Shown here piece by piece: positions 11,320-14,842 of a DNA stretch of 64,000 nt. The notes beneath the pieces are model-generated. The model ran no database searches. It saw nothing but the letters and a program-made list of their open reading frames with translations, and was not told the origin of the DNA. The stretch lies in assembly GCA_965206325.1 (NCBI GenBank), contig OZ242208.1, forward strand, positions 1,721,557 to 1,785,556. Reading direction: 5' to 3'. The first letter of the stretch is position 1, and every line of letters begins with the position of its first letter. This DNA is from Gammaproteobacteria bacterium (GTDB lineage: Bacteria > Pseudomonadota > Gammaproteobacteria > Tethybacterales > G965206325). Position numbers and translations under genes: made by a program.

Positions 11320-11348
11320 ATTGTAGCACACGCGCAAGGGCGAGTCAA
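11320..11348 (-). promoter_or_regulatory. conserved promoter-like motif copy 1 (TTGACT-N17-TACAAT on minus strand)
   Basis: Minus-strand TTGACTcgcccttgcgcgtgtgcTACAAT. The spacer is nearly identical in copy 2 and related in copy 3. Confidence 0.45.
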
Positions 11349-11436
11349 GCGTAGGCGGGGCGGTGAAAAATTTTTGGAGGAAAGACACCGCTCCATAATC
11401 CTATCGCACTCGGCAATGCGAGTCAAAGCCGTCTTA

Positions 11437-11739
11437 TCAGCGGCGTTTTACCGCTGACTTCTTTTTGACGGCTCTCTTGCGCCGTGAAATGGGGGTGCGA
11501 GCCCCAAATAAGTCCACCAGCATTTTGCGATGGTTTTCCATCAAGTCCTGCACTTCCTCCCAGTGCAAGACAAAGCGCGGCTTTTGCTTGCCTTCAGGAA
11601 TCCATCCGATGCCTGATGCCGAGAGTTCCAAACGCCCCAACACGCCGCCATAATTGTCATATGACGAAATCGTGCAGAGCTTATTCGCACTGAAGCTGCT
11701 GTGATTCAGTGGCACTTCCATTACGGGGTTTTTCCACAT
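11437..11739 (-). CDS. hypothetical protein (100 aa, basic C-terminal tail)
   Basis: ORF with RBS AAAGGAGT 6 nt upstream and motif copy 2 promoter ~20 nt further; lower GC than flanks; no recognisable domain. Confidence 0.4.
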   Translation of the reverse strand: MWKNPVMEVPLNHSSFSANKLCTISSYDNYGGVLGRLELSASGIGWIPEGKQKPRFVLHWEEVQDLMENHRKMLVDLFGARTPISRRKRAVKKKSAVKRR

Positions 11740-11764
11740 GTTTTACTCCTTTTTAGGTTGGTAA

Positions 11765-11793
11765 ATCGTAGCACACACGCAAGGGCGAGTCAT
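11765..11793 (-). promoter_or_regulatory. conserved promoter-like motif copy 2 (ATGACT-N17-TACGAT)
   Basis: Minus-strand aTGACTcgcccttgcgtgtgtgcTACGAT. It overlaps the stop codon of the upstream lipoprotein gene. Confidence 0.4.
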
Positions 11794-12284
11794 TCATCGG
11801 AGCAACTATACTCCACTTCCCATTGAAATTCTGTGATACCCTGAATTTTATGGAAATTAGTGACTTTGCATTCCTTGCTCTGTGAAGCAAAATAAGCAAT
11901 TGCAGCATCACGATAAACTGGTGGAGTATGACCAAACCCCAAACCTCGCCAAGAGGAAATAATCATAAGTCGATTTTTTTCGGGATTATCAAATATCAGC
12001 CAATTCCTATCATCATGCTCAAATTTGACGCTCTCTATGCCGGAGTAATTGTCGCCAAAATAAGTCAAACCTGAGCAGCCCGATAAGGAACCAGCCATCA
12101 CAATAACGATGGCGAGGGCGGAAAATTTGGCGGGAACGATGGAACGGACGGCGGCGAATCCGGCGACGACCGACTTGCAGACGGCGGAAAAGGCAGTGAT
12201 GATTTTTTCGCCGATGGCGATAACGCCCGACAGAATCAGGCAGAGAATCGCCAAAATGACGGCTTTGGCATTAGCGTTTTCCAT
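11790..12284 (-). CDS. putative lipoprotein (164 aa) carrying the shared signal-peptide module
   Basis: N-terminus MENANAKAVILAILCLILSGVIAIG (shared with the ankyrin protein at 19107) and lipobox-like LSGCSG downstream; lower-GC codon usage. Confidence 0.5.
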   Translation of the reverse strand: MENANAKAVILAILCLILSGVIAIGEKIITAFSAVCKSVVAGFAAVRSIVPAKFSALAIVIVMAGSLSGCSGLTYFGDNYSGIESVKFEHDDRNWLIFDNPEKNRLMIISSWRGLGFGHTPPVYRDAAIAYFASQSKECKVTNFHKIQGITEFQWEVEYSCSDE

Positions 12285-12325
12285 TTTAATCGTCCGTTGG
12301 GTCTGATTAGAAAGAGGCGATTATA
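12226..12325 (-). repeat. promoter + 5'UTR + signal-peptide module, copy A (inverted partner of 19066-19155)
   Basis: 31 nt identical (CCCGACAGAATCAGGCAGAGAATCGCCAAAA) plus ~45 nt of ~85% identity covering TATAAT, RBS and the first ~22 codons. Confidence 0.65.
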
Positions 12326-12363
12326 CGCGCAACCGGGGCGAATTGCCAAATGATTTGGAAAAA

Positions 12364-13128
12364 TCATCCCGCCGTATAGCCGCCGTCTACGGACAGCATT
12401 GCGCCGGTAATGTGTGATTCGCGAGTCAGAAAAATTATCGCGCGCGCGACCTCCGCCGCCGAGGCAATTTCATCCTTCGGAATTAATGCGCGATTGCGCT
12501 GCAAAACTTCTTCGGCGGATTCGGATTCGGAATGACCGGAAACCAGCATCGGCGTGTCAATCGCGCCCGGACAAACCGCATTTACAGTAATTCCCGACGA
12601 TGCATTCTCCAATGCCATCGCGCGCGTCAATTGCACAACGCCGCCTTTGCTCGCGCAATAAGCGGCGAGTCCCGCGCAGCCGACAAGCCCCAATGTTGAA
12701 GCGACATTTACAATCGCCCCGCCGCCGCTCTTTTGCATTTCGCCGACGGCGGCGCGACTCATGAAAAAAGTCCCGTTTAAATTAATGGCGATTGTGCGAA
12801 GCCAGCCGTCGTCCGAAGTTTGCCGCGCGTCGGCGCGAACGATAATTCCGGCGTTGTTTATCAGCACATCCAAGCCGCCGAATCGCTTGACCGATTCGGC
12901 GACGGCGGAGTCGCAAAATGCGGAATCGGATACATCTCCCGATAAAATTTCCGCCTCAGTCAAAGGCGAAATTTTTTCGCGCACCGCCTTTAATTTTTCT
13001 TCGCCGCGTCCGACCAGCAGAATTTGCGCGCCCGCTTCGGCAAAAACGAATGCAATCGCTTCGCCGAGTCCGCCGCCGCCGCCGGTGATTAAGACCGATT
13101 TTCTTTTCATTTTATATTCAGTATACAT
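12364..13128 (-). CDS. SDR family oxidoreductase (FabG-like)
   Basis: TGGGGGLG Rossmann motif and YxxxK active site (YCASK); 254 aa. Confidence 0.85.
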   Translation of the reverse strand: MYTEYKMKRKSVLITGGGGGLGEAIAFVFAEAGAQILLVGRGEEKLKAVREKISPLTEAEILSGDVSDSAFCDSAVAESVKRFGGLDVLINNAGIIVRADARQTSDDGWLRTIAINLNGTFFMSRAAVGEMQKSGGGAIVNVASTLGLVGCAGLAAYCASKGGVVQLTRAMALENASSGITVNAVCPGAIDTPMLVSGHSESESAEEVLQRNRALIPKDEIASAAEVARAIIFLTRESHITGAMLSVDGGYTAG

Positions 13129-13146
13129 TATCGGCGAAATGCGTCA

Positions 13147-13896
13147 TTACATGGGCGGCAACGGCAACTTGGCGGTGCGGCCGCCGTCCATTACAAAAAT
13201 CTGACCCGAGGCAAACGACGACGAATCCCCCGCCAGCCACAGCGTGCATTCGGCGATATCCTCCGGCAAGCCCATCCGACCGACCGGATGCAATCGCTTA
13301 ATTGCGTCAAGGGCGGATTCGGGGTTTGGGTAATTCGCAATCAGCGAATCATTAAGCGGCGTTTGAATCCAGCCGGGAGCGACGGCGTTGCAGCGAATTC
13401 CCAAAGTTCCAAACTCCAAGGCGATGTTTCTTGTCAAACTATGCACCGCACCTTTGGAAGCGGCGTAGGCGGAATGCAAAGGATTCGCCCCCAATCCTTC
13501 AATTGAGCCGATATTGACAATCGCGCCGCCGCCGCGTTTTTGCATTTTCTTCGCCGCAAATTTCGCGCACAGAAATACCCCCCGCAAATTGACCGCCATC
13601 ATTTTATCCCACTCGTCGGCGGATGTTGCTAAGATGGATTTTTCCAAAACGATTCCGGCGTTGTTGACCAGAATGTCCACGCCGCCGAATTGATCTTCGG
13701 CGAAATGGAAAAGATTCTCCGCCTCCTTTTCGCAACTTACATCCGCTCGGCAAAAAGCAAAGCCGGACGACGGCGGCGGATTCAAATCGCCGACCACAAC
13801 TTTCGCATCCGCCCGCAAAAAGCGAGCCGCAATCGCCAGACCGATTCCCTGCGACCCGCCCGTGACAACGGCGACCTTGCCTTTTAATTCCGCCAT
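13147..13896 (-). CDS. SDR family oxidoreductase
   Basis: VTGGSQGIG and YAASK motifs; 249 aa. Confidence 0.85.
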   Translation of the reverse strand: MAELKGKVAVVTGGSQGIGLAIAARFLRADAKVVVGDLNPPPSSGFAFCRADVSCEKEAENLFHFAEDQFGGVDILVNNAGIVLEKSILATSADEWDKMMAVNLRGVFLCAKFAAKKMQKRGGGAIVNIGSIEGLGANPLHSAYAASKGAVHSLTRNIALEFGTLGIRCNAVAPGWIQTPLNDSLIANYPNPESALDAIKRLHPVGRMGLPEDIAECTLWLAGDSSSFASGQIFVMDGGRTAKLPLPPM

Positions 13897-13897
13897 C

Positions 13898-14746
13898 TCA
13901 ATTGTTGGAAGCGACGACCTTTGTTCGCTGTTCGCCCAAGCCGTTTATTTTCAGCACAAGCGAATCGCCTTCCCGCAAAAATCGCGGCGGCGACATTGCC
14001 ATTCCGACTCCGGGCGGCGTGCCGGTCAGCATAACATCGCCCGCCTGCCACGACATATAATGCGAAACGCGGCTGATTAATTCGGCGATATTAAATATCA
14101 TATCGCCGCTTTGGCCCGACTGCATCAACTCGCCGTTTAAGGTCAGCGATAAATCCAAAGAGGAAAGGTCGGCAATTTCATCGCGCGTGACAAGCCAAGG
14201 TCCAAGCGGTGCGAAAGTGTCCGCGCTTTTTCCTTTCGTCCATTGCGCGCCTCTTTCCAATTGATATTCCCTTTCCGAAACATCATTGGCGATGCAGAAT
14301 CCGGCGATATAAGAAAGCGCATCTTCTTTGGAGATTCGCTTTCCGTCCCTGCCGATGACGACCGCCAATTCAACTTCCCAATCCGTCTTGACGGAATTCG
14401 GCGGCAATACAATGTTGTCATTCGGGCCGCAGATTGCCGTCGGTGACTTCAAAAAAATAATCGGATCGGTCGGCGGCTGCATGCCGGATTCGGCGGCATG
14501 CTTTCGGTAGTTAAGTCCGATGCCGACAACCTTGCCGACATTGCCAATCGGCGGGCCAAGGCGAATGTCATCGCCGACCTCCGGAAAACCGGCGGCATCC
14601 ACCTCCCGCACGCGCGAAAGAAATTCATCGCTGAGTGACGCACCGCTCCAATCCGGCACGAATCCATGGACATTGCGGACGATTCCATCGCCGTCAATAA
14701 TGCCGGGCTTTTCCTGCCCTTTGTCGCCGAATCGGACCAGTTTCAT
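13898..14746 (-). CDS. fumarylacetoacetate hydrolase (FAH) family protein
   Basis: 282 aa; MKLVRFGDKGQEKPGIIDGDG N-terminus and FAH-fold C-terminal domain pattern. Confidence 0.8.
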   Translation of the reverse strand: MKLVRFGDKGQEKPGIIDGDGIVRNVHGFVPDWSGASLSDEFLSRVREVDAAGFPEVGDDIRLGPPIGNVGKVVGIGLNYRKHAAESGMQPPTDPIIFLKSPTAICGPNDNIVLPPNSVKTDWEVELAVVIGRDGKRISKEDALSYIAGFCIANDVSEREYQLERGAQWTKGKSADTFAPLGPWLVTRDEIADLSSLDLSLTLNGELMQSGQSGDMIFNIAELISRVSHYMSWQAGDVMLTGTPPGVGMAMSPPRFLREGDSLVLKINGLGEQRTKVVASNN

Positions 14747-14813
14747 TTTGGGTTCTCTCCTTTCTTGTTTGCGAGTCGCGGGTTTTTAATCCCGTCCGTC
14801 AGGTTATTGTTAA

Positions 14814-14842
14814 ATCGTAGCGCAACTCGCAGGACGAGTCAA
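14814..14842 (-). promoter_or_regulatory. conserved promoter-like motif copy 3 (TTGACT-N17-TACGAT) upstream of the FAH-SDR-SDR operon
   Basis: Minus-strand TTGACTcgtcctgcgagttgcgcTACGAT, ~68 nt upstream of the FAH start. Confidence 0.4.

What the first reader, a model, noticed from the sequence alone, without database searches (positions are those of the whole stretch)
11320..14842. Three copies of a TTGACT-N17-TACRAT promoter with conserved spacer (CGCCCTTGCGYGTGTGC) on the minus strand
Copies lie at 11320-11348, 11765-11793 and 14814-14842 (the last more diverged). Each sits 20-70 nt upstream of a minus-strand gene: the 52-aa ORF, the 100-aa ORF and the FAH-SDR-SDR operon. Spacer conservation is not needed for sigma-70 function, so it implies an overlapping operator for a common regulator or a recently duplicated mobile promoter. 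A related TTGACTCGCCC -35 also precedes the leuA leader at ~52220.
Basis: seen in the sequence. Interest (0 to 1): 0.5.

Follow-up and report, generated by a model that had tools for sequence, protein, structure and literature searches.

The report
Copied promoter heading strain-variable gene cassettes
The three look-alike sequences are real and belong to a larger family of one near-consensus bacterial promoter that has been copied in front of unrelated, strain-variable small genes and into the middle of an old operon in a small-genome, probably host-associated bacterium: a neat but ordinary case of promoter reuse, with no sign of a shared repressor site.

Summary
All three 29-mers are at the stated coordinates. 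The second has ATGACT rather than TTGACT as its -35.

Other strains add four more distinct copies, one of them at a different genomic locus.

The shared unit is about 32 nt: TTGACTCGC, 9 variable bases, TGTGC, TACGAT, TTT.
- The 3' part of the "conserved spacer" is a textbook extended -10 element (T-17 G-16 T-15 G-14).
- The middle differs between subfamilies.
- Shifted blocks in the middle suggest internal indels offset so that the spacer stays exactly 17 nt.

Every copy points at a downstream ORF. All copies lie in DNA that is missing from more distant relatives, and all but one lie in DNA that varies between strains. The FAH copy sits in a 117-nt lineage-specific insertion that split an ancestral overlapping epimerase/FAH gene junction.

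Best reading: a propagated ("mobile") sigma-70 promoter family that drives accessory cassettes. Promoter activity is inferred, not measured. A common operator is not supported: no regulator gene lies nearby, no fixed palindrome is conserved, and the centre of the spacer is variable. It cannot be excluded.

Interest is modest: a new member of a known kind.

The parts
11317..11348 (-). c1: TTGACTCGCCCTTGCGCGTGTGCTACAATTTC. Promoter copy 45 nt upstream of the 52-aa ORF; subfamily A.
   Evidence: 46.3 bits. Polymorphic between strains: TACGAT in L203, TTGACG in L204.
11395..11426 (-). c5: TTGACTCGCATTGCCGAGTGCGATAGGATTAT. Diverged copy in tandem, 49 nt upstream of c1. Possibly the remnant of a lost cassette, or a second promoter for the 52-aa ORF.
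   Evidence: 33.9 bits. Present in L203 and L204.
11762..11793 (-). c2: ATGACTCGCCCTTGCGTGTGTGCTACGATTTA. Promoter copy 25 nt upstream of the 100-aa ORF. Its TGA is the stop codon of the 164-aa ORF.
   Evidence: 48.6 bits. A near-identical copy (c9) overlaps the stop of a 45%-identical homologue at another locus, L210.
14811..14842 (-). c3: TTGACTCGTCCTGCGAGTTGCGCTACGATTTA. Promoter copy 67 nt upstream of the FAH-SDR-SDR genes.
   Evidence: 41.1 bits. Present in all 9 strain sequences (the window plus 8 strain loci). Absent from relatives.
14745..14861 (-). 117-nt lineage-specific insertion between the epimerase stop and the FAH start. It carries c3, a 5' UTR and an AGGAG ribosome-binding site, and is flanked by AAAT...AAAT.
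   Evidence: In relatives L073, L074-79 and L080 the two genes overlap (GTGAAATGAAAC). No second copy of the full insert was found.
20137..20168 (+). c4: TTGACTCGCTTACGGGTTTGTACTACGATTTA. Promoter copy at the junction between the ankyrin part and the transmembrane part of the 502-aa ORF, 27 nt before the in-frame ATG at 20193.
   Evidence: 42.7 bits. Strain L206 has TAA where the window has CAA just before the motif, followed by a different downstream ORF.
52192..52223 (-). c6: TTGACTCGCCCGCCCAAATCGGCGATAATTTT, upstream of leuA. A marginal relative: it shares TTGACTCGCCC, the 17-nt spacer and the TTT, but lacks TGTGC and TACGAT.
   Evidence: 17.2 bits, against a best shuffle score of 14.4.
11116..11274 (-). 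52-aa ORF with a basic C-terminal tail, downstream of c1. No known family.
   Evidence: Called as a gene in L203 and L204. Three non-synonymous against one synonymous change versus L203.
11437..11739 (-). 100-aa ORF downstream of c2. The only other member of its cluster, a 102-aa variant, lies on two other contigs of the species (L203 and L204). It has a basic C-terminal tail.
   Evidence: An in-frame 6-nt indel between strains keeps the reading frame. Weak sub-threshold PH_TFIIH hit.
11790..12284 (-). 164-aa ORF (secreted or membrane-anchored protein family). Its stop codon lies inside c2. Its 5' end is a duplicated promoter plus signal-peptide module.
   Evidence: (repeat I1).
12364..14746 (-). 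FAH (13898-14746), SDR (13147-13896) and SDR (12364-13128), the genes downstream of c3.
20193..20615 (+). 140-aa transmembrane ORF downstream of c4. In the window it is fused in frame to the ankyrin ORF (19107-20615).
12210..12326 (-). Separate duplicated 5' module (TTGGCA-N18-TATAAT promoter, ribosome-binding site, signal peptide MEN..AILCLILSG). It is shared at 82% with 19065-19181(+) at the start of the ankyrin gene. It marks the left edge of both variable slots.
   Evidence: (I1).

Best explanation
These sequences are members of one family of homologous sigma-70-type promoters that has been propagated within this species.

**Anatomy (shown).** The unit is about 32 nt:
- a -35 of TTGACT, followed by an invariant CG and usually C;
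- a spacer that is always 17 nt;
- T-17 G-16 T-15 G-14, then C, which is an extended -10;
- a -10 of TACGAT or TACAAT;
- then TTT.

**Mechanism (inferred).** The housekeeping RNA polymerase (RpoD is encoded at 27881-30094) starts transcription about 7 nt downstream of the -10. Expression would be strong and probably constitutive, driving whatever ORF follows.

**What the copies drive (shown).**
- Small, mostly orphan, strain-variable accessory genes in two variable slots. These slots flank a conserved ABC-transporter/epimerase/FAH/SDR core. A further copy heads a similar gene at another locus.
- The FAH-SDR-SDR genes. Here a 117-nt insertion carrying the promoter and a ribosome-binding site split an ancestral, overlapping (probably translationally coupled) epimerase-FAH junction.

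**Why the spacer looks conserved.** There are two causes. First, there is functional constraint on the extended -10 and on the 17-nt length. Second, there is common descent or recent copying: subfamily A (c1, c2, c7, c9) is 10-13/14 identical in the inner spacer.

**How a 32-60-nt unit is copied is not known.** The most likely routes are short-tract gene conversion, or recombination that moves the junction together with cassettes.
For: **Promoter anatomy**
- 4 exact TTGACT-N17-TANNAT sites against 0.01 expected.
- Bimodal weight-matrix scores: 34-49 bits for family members, 17 bits or less for everything else.
- Nine distinct members. TGACTCG, G-16 and TA..ATT are invariant. TGTG is present at -17 to -14 in 6 of 9 copies. 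All copies have a 17-nt spacer.
- TGTG at -17 to -14 is the published extended -10 motif (abstract of PMC6212719).
- Read directly from the sequences: the central C[GA]N[GA]T block sits at three different offsets, with 6, 7 or 8 nt on its left and 2, 1 or 0 extra T/C on its right. The total length never changes.

**Position and orientation**
- All copies point at a downstream ORF. The start codon lies 12-67 nt after the -10 in 7 of 9 copies. The other two are c5, in tandem before c1, and c8, before repeat units and the aldolase gene.

**Propagation**
- There are no copies in about 130 kb from relatives whose FAH is 64-71% identical.
- In those relatives epimerase and FAH overlap. In this species a 117-nt insertion carries c3.
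- The c1/c2/c5 island is present in the window, L203 and L204. It is replaced by other genes in L072, L205, L206, L208 and L209.
- The slot after the ankyrin gene carries c4, c4', or c7 plus c8, with different downstream ORFs in different strains.
- c9 lies at another locus (L210). It is 31/32 identical to c2. The upstream proteins are only 45% identical and the downstream ORFs are unrelated. A 60-nt block is 92% identical, against roughly half for the gene body, judged by eye from alignment A3.

**Distinct from other promoters**
- Other good promoter-like sites in the window lack these features, for example TTGACA-N18-TATAAT at 21941 and 27826.
- The bare outer pattern is not generally common: 71 singleton hits in 596 Gb of genomes.
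Against: - There are no transcript data, so promoter activity and start sites are inferred.
- The invariant CG(C) after the -35 has no known role in sigma-70 recognition and is unexplained.
- No mechanism is established for copying a unit this short.
- The 60-nt c2/c9 block extends into coding sequence with no synonymous changes. That fits gene conversion, but equally fits nucleotide-level selection for something other than a promoter.
- c4 lies inside an annotated ORF and has only a weak ribosome-binding site after it.
- Only about 64 kb plus roughly 40 kb of strain-specific sequence of a ~2-Mb genome could be examined, so the genome-wide distribution is unknown.
- The copies are polymorphic at -35 position 6 and -10 position 4 between strains, so constraint is not absolute.
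Confidence: 0.7

Rival explanations
1. Regulon operator. The shared sequence, especially TGACTCGC and the ACTCG...CGAGT inverted repeat that overlaps the -35 and the spacer, would be the binding site of one transcription factor. That factor would co-regulate the cassette genes and the FAH operon, for example in response to a host signal.
For: - C7, G8 and usually C9 after the -35 are conserved in all nine copies without a known polymerase contact.
- ACTCG-N4-6-CGAGT is intact in c3, c5 and c4' and is one mismatch off in c1, c4 and c8.
- Subfamily A keeps 10-13 of 14 inner-spacer bases across unrelated contexts.
Against: - The inverted repeat has variable spacing (4, 5 or 6 nt) and is degenerate in most copies.
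- Positions 10-18 carry little information across the family.
- No transcription-factor gene lies next to any copy in the window or in the strain loci.
- Folding shows no consistent hairpin.
- The copies are absent from relatives that keep the same FAH operon, so there is no conserved regulon.
Confidence: 0.13
2. Cassette-junction recombination site. The 32-60-nt block would primarily be the sequence at which accessory cassettes are exchanged, either by a site-specific recombinase encoded elsewhere or by homology-driven swapping. Its promoter-like character would be secondary or a by-product.
For: - Copies sit exactly at the junctions between unrelated, strain-variable ORFs: 164-aa | 100-aa | 52-aa, and ankyrin | different small membrane ORFs.
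- In c2/c9, similarity rises from roughly half in the gene body to 92% over 60 nt and collapses immediately after TTTACC.
- c1 and c2 are identical over 30 nt in strain L203.
Against: - No integrase or recombinase gene lies in the window or in the fetched strain loci.
- There is no attC-like or dif-like symmetry and no consistent hairpin.
- The outer borders of the two variable slots are a different 117-nt 5' module and REP-like repeats, not this motif.
- The features conserved in every copy are exactly the promoter elements and their spacing.
Confidence: 0.12
3. Independent strong promoters that merely converge on the organism's preferred consensus, with no common origin.
For: - The outer pattern TTGACTCG-N14-CTACGATTT also recurs as an apparent promoter upstream of ribosome-binding sites in unrelated Terriglobia: 17 of the 71 genome hits.
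- The inner-spacer identity of c3 and c4 to c1 is 6/14. That is within the background range seen for unrelated matches.
Against: - Subfamily A copies share 10-13 of 14 inner-spacer bases, against a background mode of 4-5 and a maximum of 9.
- c4, c7 and c8 also share about 11 nt upstream of the -35.
- Other promoters in the same window do not have these features.
- All copies lie in recently acquired or variable DNA.
Confidence: 0.04

Closest known systems
Putative mobile promoters (PMPs; Matus-Garcia, Nijveen and van Passel 2012, PMC3488235)
   Same: [quoted passage not shown] Copy number differs between closely related strains. They are proposed to rewire or activate genes, including acquired ones.
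   Different: PMPs were defined operationally as 50-100 nt at 80% identity or more. Here the unit shared by all copies is only the ~32-nt core promoter. It reaches ~44 nt in c4/c7/c8 and 60 nt in c2/c9, and that last block includes coding sequence. One event here has a clear ancestral state: an overlapping gene junction.
Extended -10 (TGn / T-17G-16T-15G-14) sigma-70 promoters, e.g. galP1 and the Gram-positive '-16 region'
   Same: TGTG lies at exactly -17 to -14 ahead of a TAnnnT -10. This accounts for the conserved 3' part of the spacer.
   Different: Classical extended -10 promoters often lack a good -35. These also carry TTGACT at 17 nt. The conserved CG(C) after the -35 is not part of any described element.
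Promoter-bearing miniature repeats (Neisseria Correia elements, other MITE/REP-type repeats)
   Same: Short repeated DNA that places sigma-70 promoters next to genes and varies between strains. The same genome also carries REP-like palindromic repeats next to the variable slots.
   Different: No terminal inverted repeats were seen by eye. No full-length repeated element was found, because only the promoter core recurs. No clear target-site duplication is present: AAAT...AAAT at the c3 insertion is ambiguous.
Integron cassette arrays with attC sites
   Same: Strings of small, orphan, strain-variable ORFs separated by a recurring short sequence.
   Different: No integrase nearby. The repeat is 32 nt without attC-type imperfect palindromes. 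It lies 5' of each ORF and is oriented as a promoter, whereas integron cassettes are mostly promoterless.

Membership tests
Sigma-70 (housekeeping) promoter | -35 hexamer close to TTGACA and -10 hexamer of TAnnnT type | tested here: met
   TTGACT (ATGACT in c2 and c9). TACGAT, TACAAT or TAGGAT as the -10.
Sigma-70 (housekeeping) promoter | Spacer of 17 +/- 1 nt | tested here: met
   Exactly 17 nt in all nine distinct copies, even though the central block sits at shifted positions.
Sigma-70 (housekeeping) promoter | Located upstream of, and oriented towards, a gene start | tested here: met
   The start codon lies 12-67 nt after the -10 in 7 of 9 copies. The other two precede another copy, or repeat units plus a gene.
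Sigma-70 (housekeeping) promoter | Transcription actually starts about 7 nt downstream of the -10 | not testable with these tools
   No transcriptome or 5'-end data are available.
Extended -10 promoter | TG at -15/-14 (TGTG at -17 to -14) | tested here: met
   TGTG in c1, c2, c9, c7, c8 and c4'. TGCG in c3 and c5 (TGTG in the L204 allele of c3). TGTA in c4. G-16 is invariant. Motif definition from PMC6212719.
Putative mobile promoter (PMP, PMC3488235) | Homologous upstream sequences in front of non-homologous coding sequences | tested here: met
   The downstream ORFs are unrelated: 52-aa, 100-aa, FAH, three different small membrane ORFs and a 147-aa ORF.
Putative mobile promoter (PMP, PMC3488235) | At least 50 nt aligned at 80% identity or more | tested here: not met
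   The shared unit is about 32 nt. Only c2/c9 reach 60 nt at 92%, and half of that is coding sequence. Definition read.
MITE / Correia-like element | Terminal inverted repeats, target-site duplication and multiple full-length copies | tested here: not met
   The 117-nt c3 insert has no second copy in the window or the fetched loci. No inverted ends were seen by eye. AAAT...AAAT flanks are the only hint of a target-site duplication.
Integron attC site | 57-141-nt imperfect palindrome that folds as a hairpin, with an integrase gene at the array | tested here: not met
   The 32-nt unit shows no consistent fold (z-scores +0.6 to -2.4). No integrase in the window or the strain loci.
Operator of a dedicated regulator | Repeat half-sites at fixed spacing conserved in all copies, with a cognate regulator gene usually adjacent | tested here: not met
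   ACTCG/CGAGT spacing is 4-6 nt, and the repeat is intact in only three of the nine copies (c3, c5, c4'). The centre of the spacer has low information. No regulator gene is adjacent. Binding itself is not testable here.

The most novel reading that the evidence does not exclude
The 32-60-nt block would be a dedicated, promoter-bearing cassette junction. On this reading it is the sequence through which this bacterium shuffles effector-like accessory genes (ankyrin-repeat, secreted and small membrane proteins) between strains and loci. Every newly installed cassette would then arrive already switched on. Functionally this would be an integron-like system without a recognisable integrase or attC.
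Probability: 0.1. Interest if true: 0.7.

Novelty: new member of a known kind. Interest (0 to 1): 0.35.

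Why it matters
Reuse of promoters separately from their genes is thought to be a quick way for bacteria to switch on acquired genes or rewire old ones. Well-resolved natural examples are few.

This case offers several things:
- An event with a clear before-and-after state. An overlapping (probably translationally coupled) epimerase-FAH junction in relatives becomes two units, separated by a 117-nt promoter-carrying insert.
- A family small enough to trace copy by copy across many near-identical strains.
- Apparent compensated shifts inside the spacer that keep the 17-nt spacing. 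This is a natural illustration of which promoter features are under selection.

If the organism is, as its relatives suggest, a host-associated symbiont, the copies also mark which accessory genes are likely to be strongly expressed: ankyrin-adjacent membrane proteins and small basic proteins.

Tried and rejected
- **Public collection scans.** I scanned genomes, metagenomes and viral contigs with TTGACTCG-N14-CTACRATTT. They returned only unrelated singleton hits, about as many as or fewer than my own rough chance estimate. None resembled the window. The source species is not in the GTDB representative set or in the JGI contigs.
- **Phage origin of the 10.8-12.4 kb island.** No blastn match to phage records. 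No PHROG hit for the small ORFs.
- **Known RNA element.** Rfam finds only one tRNA in the whole window. Folding of eight copies shows no shared structure. A terminator or riboswitch reading is rejected.
- **Alternative sigma factors.** The RpoH-type and FliA-type consensus sequences, as I recall them, do not match. Resemblance of GCTACGATTTAA to the RpoS-type extended -10 (C at -13) is from memory only. It was not pursued because no RpoS gene was seen. The second sigma gene in the window was not typed: Pfam shows only sigma-70 regions 1.2, 2 and 4, and its region-2 sequence looks RpoH-like to me.
- **GANTC methylation site in the -35 (GACTC).** GANTC is very common in this genome, with 548 sites in 64 kb, so the site is not distinctive.
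- **Exact-protein look-ups.** Look-ups of the window's own 100-aa and FAH proteins failed. Near-identical strains had to be reached through homologues and cluster members.
- **Structure of the 100-aa protein.** The single-sequence model has pLDDT 67 and gave no significant PDB match.

Full report
**1. The observation**

- c1, 11320-11348: TTGACTCGCCCTTGCGCGTGTGCTACAAT
- c2, 11765-11793: ATGACTCGCCCTTGCGTGTGTGCTACGAT
- c3, 14814-14842: TTGACTCGTCCTGCGAGTTGCGCTACGAT

One correction is needed. c2 begins ATGACT, not TTGACT, and its TGA is the stop codon of the upstream 164-aa ORF.

The -10 elements end 45, 25 and 67 nt before the ATGs of the 52-aa ORF, the 100-aa ORF and the FAH gene. Each ATG is preceded by an AGGAG-type ribosome-binding site.

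Chance is excluded.
- TTGACT-N17-TANNAT occurs 4 times against 0.01 expected.
- The longer pattern TTGACTCG-N14-CTACRATTT, with up to 2 mismatches, occurs 5 times against 0.01 expected.

- c5, 11398-11426(-): TTGACTCGCATTGCCGAGTGCGATAGGAT. It lies in tandem, 49 nt upstream of c1.
- c4, 20137-20165(+): TTGACTCGCTTACGGGTTTGTACTACGAT.

Every CTACRATTT in the window is coupled to (T/A)TGACTCG 14 nt upstream. A weight-matrix scan is cleanly bimodal. Five sites score 34-49 bits. The leuA-side site (52192-52223) scores 17 bits. Everything else falls below the best shuffle score of 14.4.

**2. Context and source**

The window's FAH protein has a 99%-identical homologue on a 1.99-Mb contig whose name carries the circular flag. 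Its protein cluster lists about a dozen further contigs of 1.4-1.99 Mb, so many near-identical strains have been assembled from ENA metagenome samples.

The nearest named relatives of FAH are uncultured Gammaproteobacteria (65% identity) and a Candidatus Persebacteraceae symbiont (63% identity). That family belongs to the Tethybacterales, a group known from sponges and a nudibranch. I therefore treat the organism as a small-genome, probably host-associated proteobacterium, but this is tentative.

I fetched the following loci:
- the syntenic region from eight other contigs of the species: L072 and L203-L209;
- a second locus, apparently of the same species: L210;
- three more distant relatives: L073, L074-79 and L080.

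**3. The family across strains**

Scanning these loci raises the number of distinct family members to nine.

| Copy | Locus and position | Sequence | Setting |
|---|---|---|---|
| c4' | L205 1926-1957 | TTGACTCGCCTTCGAGTTTGTGCTACGATTTA | directly after the stop of a shorter ankyrin gene, before a different small membrane ORF |
| c7 | L206 5227-5258 | TTGACTCGCCTGTGCGCATGTGCTACAATTTG | after the TAA stop of another short ankyrin gene, 12 nt before the ATG of another small membrane ORF |
| c8 | L206 4897-4928 | TTGACTCGCTCTGCAAGTCGTGCTACGATTTG | after that membrane ORF, before two 167-nt palindromic repeat units and the aldolase gene |
| c9 | L210 2736-2767 | ATGACTCGCCTTTGCGCGTGTGCTACGATTTA | a different genomic neighbourhood (PfkB, panB, panC) |

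The ungapped alignment of all nine gives TTGACTCGC-ctT.gcG..-TGTGC-TACGAT-TTa.
- Invariant: TGACTCG, G at position 20, and TA..ATT.
- In 8 of 9 copies: C9, T19, G22, C23, C26 and T31.
- Positions 10-18 carry little information.

By inner spacer (positions 9-22) the copies fall into subfamilies:
- A = c1, c2, c9, c7, with 10-13 of 14 positions identical;
- B = c3, c8, with 9 of 14;
- C = c4, c4', with 10 of 14;
- c5 stands alone.

For comparison I took the unrelated sequences that matched the outer pattern in the public collections. Scored against the best of four family members, these share mostly 3-6 of 14 positions, with a maximum of 9. True spacer conservation beyond the outer pattern is therefore a property of the subfamilies, not of the family as a whole.

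**4. What the conserved parts are**

With the -10 hexamer at -12 to -7, positions 19-22 are -17 to -14. They read TGTG in six copies, TGCG in two and TGTA in one. One strain's allele of c3 has mutated to TGTG. T-17 G-16 T-15 G-14 is the described extended -10 motif (abstract of PMC6212719).

A second argument for promoter function comes from reading the sequences side by side. A central block C[GA]N[GA]T sits at three different offsets:
- 8 nt after TTGACT in c1, c7 and c5;
- 7 nt in c3 and c8;
- 6 nt in c4 and c4'.

The shift is offset by 0, 1 or 2 extra T/C bases on the other side of the block. The spacer is therefore 17 nt in every copy. This is what selection on -35/-10 spacing predicts, and it argues against a rigid protein-binding site in the middle.

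The inverted repeat ACTCG-N4-6-CGAGT is intact in c3, c5 and c4' only. Its spacing varies, and folding the copies gives no consistent structure (z-scores +0.6 to -2.4). The invariant CG(C) after the -35 remains unexplained.

**5. Where the copies lie**

None of the relatives with 64-71% FAH identity has a single family member in about 130 kb.

*The FAH copy.* In all three relatives the epimerase and FAH genes overlap (GTGAAATGAAAC: stop and start share ATGA). In this species 117 nt have been inserted at precisely that point. The insert is flanked by AAAT...AAAT and consists of c3, a 5' UTR and an AGGAG site. All nine strain sequences (the window plus eight strain loci) have it. No second copy of the whole insert was found, so only the promoter core is repeated. 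This is a clear promoter-insertion event that split an ancestral operon.

*The c1/c2/c5 island.* This island (164-, 100- and 52-aa ORFs, about 10.8-12.36 kb) is present in the window, L203 and L204. In the other strains the slot holds different genes:
- restriction-modification-type genes (a large N6_N4 methyltransferase with a ResIII helicase) in L072, L206, L208 and L209;
- an ankyrin gene with the same N-terminal module in L205.

*The slot after the ABC-transporter permease.* It carries ankyrin genes of different lengths, followed by c4, c4', or c7 plus c8 and different small ORFs. L203 has no ankyrin gene there at all.

*The outer edges of both slots.* On one side is a separate 117-nt duplicated module (TTGGCA-N18-TATAAT promoter, ribosome-binding site, signal peptide MEN..AILCLILSG). 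On the other side are REP-like palindromic repeats. The motif family marks the internal junctions.

*c4 and the 502-aa ORF.* In the window the ankyrin ORF reads ...AAG CAA TTT GAC TCG... L206 has AAG TAA at the same place. The 502-aa ORF therefore reads through the point where the L206 ankyrin gene stops, across c4 and into the next ORF. That ORF starts with an in-frame ATG at 20193.

**6. The c2/c9 pair**

c9 overlaps the stop codon of P0138, a protein only 45% identical to the window's 164-aa protein. It is followed by an unrelated 147-aa ORF. In the nucleotide alignment the gene bodies are, by eye, only about half identical. The last nine codons plus the motif, through TTTACC, are 55/60 identical. 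Similarity stops immediately afterwards.

In strain L203, c1 and c2 are identical over 30 nt, although nothing outside them aligns.

The copies are therefore either being homogenised or recently copied, or they are under nucleotide-level selection. I cannot tell which from sequence alone. I favour copying or gene conversion, because the copies are also polymorphic between strains at -35 position 6 and -10 position 4.

**7. Alternatives tested**

- *Operator.* No transcription-factor gene lies next to any copy. There is no fixed palindrome and the centre is variable. It is not supported, although the CG(C) leaves room for it.
- *Recombination site.* The junction positions and the sharp block edges are suggestive. 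However, no recombinase gene was found, there is no attC-like or dif-like symmetry, and the slot borders are other sequences.
- *Convergence.* This is excluded for subfamily A and unlikely overall. It is worth noting that the bare outer pattern also looks like a working promoter in Terriglobia: 17 of 71 genome hits, each upstream of a ribosome-binding site.
- *RNA element or terminator.* Nothing in Rfam and no shared fold.
- *Phage origin.* No hits.
- *GANTC methylation.* The site is far too common in this genome to be meaningful.

**8. Comparison with known systems**

In function these are sigma-70 promoters with an extended -10. In evolution they behave like the "putative mobile promoters" of Matus-Garcia et al. 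(PMC3488235): homologous promoters upstream of non-homologous genes, with strain-variable copy number. They do not meet that paper's operational threshold of at least 50 nt at 80% identity, because only the ~32-nt core is shared. I therefore file them as the same kind of phenomenon rather than as a formal PMP family. They are not MITEs, attC sites or an identifiable regulon operator (see the membership table).

**9. Verdict**

The promoter reading is very likely right. The "common operator" half is not.

Shown:
- the sequences, their statistics and their orientation;
- strain and lineage specificity;
- the insertion at the epimerase/FAH junction;
- the extended -10 match;
- the constant 17-nt spacing.

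Inferred:
- transcription from these sites;
- the copying mechanism;
- the absence of a regulator.

Limits:
- only about 100 kb of a ~2-Mb genome was visible;
- the source species is absent from the scannable collections;
- there are no expression data.

Interest is modest (0.35): a tidy natural example of promoter propagation, and a new member of a known kind.

Noticed in passing
window 12210-12326(-) and 19065-19181(+); proteins P0175, P0180, P0215, P0171, P0193: A second duplicated regulatory module, 117 nt long and 82% identical between the two window copies. It comprises a TTGGCA-N18-TATAAT promoter, a ribosome-binding site and a signal/anchor peptide (MEN..RLLAILCLILSG.IAIGEKII). It heads otherwise unrelated secreted proteins: the 164-aa domain protein, ankyrin-repeat proteins and others. 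In strain L205 an ankyrin gene with this module replaces the 164-aa gene in the same slot.
   Followed up: partly
window 11437-11739(-): The 100-aa ORF driven by c2 has a weak, sub-threshold match to the eukaryotic TFIIH p62 PH domain (Pfam PF08567, E = 0.064). It ends in a very basic tail (RRKRAVKKKSAVKRR). A single-sequence AlphaFold model (pLDDT 67) shows four strands plus a helix. Its only PDB matches are non-significant; they include FERM/PH-like folds and TFIIH p62. It could be a eukaryote-like effector, but this is unproven. The 52-aa ORF (11116-11274) also has a basic tail.
   Followed up: partly
window 19107-20615(+): The 502-aa ankyrin ORF appears to be a read-through fusion. The window has CAA where strain L206 has a TAA stop, immediately before promoter copy c4. 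The ankyrin part therefore runs in frame into a 140-aa transmembrane ORF (ATG at 20193). The number of 99-nt ankyrin repeats differs between strains, giving products of 135 to 502 aa.
   Followed up: partly
window 20590-20756 and 20757-20923; also 10831-11065 and 30686-30779: A 167-nt unit containing a long palindrome (GTAGGGCGGGGTGAG...CACCCCGCCCTAC) is tandemly duplicated at 99% identity between the ankyrin/transmembrane ORF and the aldolase gene. A 110-nt piece of it recurs next to gshB in strain L203. Other REP-like palindromes (core GTCGGAGATTAATCTCCGAC) flank the variable island. These repeats, not the promoter motif, sit at the outer edges of the variable slots.
   Followed up: partly
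window 127-140, 811-821, 1354-1365, 1380-1392, 2519-2528, 3525-3538, 4907-4919, 24591-24600, 31507-31517, 32165-32179, 32270-32282, 43236-43248, 43578-43592, 44318-44333, 44594-44605: Fifteen homopolymer runs of 10-16 C or G in 64 kb. Several lie within long ORFs, including ones in the mur/fts cell-wall gene cluster. The three runs that could be checked are also present, with single interruptions, in strain L203, so they are not an artefact of one assembly. Their meaning is unknown. Possibilities are poly-glycine or poly-proline coding, slippage-prone tracts, or a shared sequencing bias.
   Followed up: partly
whole window: GATC is about four-fold under-represented: 73 sites against about 300 expected from a second-order Markov model. 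GANTC is over-represented: 548 against about 327. This suggests restriction pressure on GATC, or another strong oligonucleotide bias.
   Followed up: no
L072 12.8-20.8 kb, L206, L208, L209 (same slot as window 10.8-12.36 kb): In several strains the slot downstream of the second SDR gene holds a large N6_N4 methyltransferase plus a ResIII helicase (a restriction-modification-type island), instead of the three small ORFs. This locus is a strain-level hot spot for accessory DNA. L203 and L208 carry an AAA_15 ATPase pair after the permease.
   Followed up: no
L002, L006, L011, L017, L024, L033, L036-L039, L041, L044, L047, L052, L058, L060, L070: Seventeen of the 71 genome-collection hits to TTGACTCG-N14-CTACRATTT are from Terriglobia/Acidobacteriaceae. 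They sit just upstream of ribosome-binding sites. This exact promoter form therefore seems to be favoured in that unrelated phylum.
   Followed up: no
window 52041-52192(-): Between the TTGACTCGCCC...GATAAT promoter-like site and leuA there is a T-rich, GC-hairpin-rich 150-nt leader. It contains a short ORF (MRKNSGGIFFLFRGEARGLALFLLRPLRRGHLSHP) with several Leu codons. It was not examined further.
   Followed up: no
L206 4948-5215(-): The small ORF driven by copy c7 (MKGLPIIIFF...NVVLGWTIIGWFIALYMAI...) resembles, from memory, the phage-type superinfection-immunity membrane protein family. No family search was run on it.
   Followed up: no
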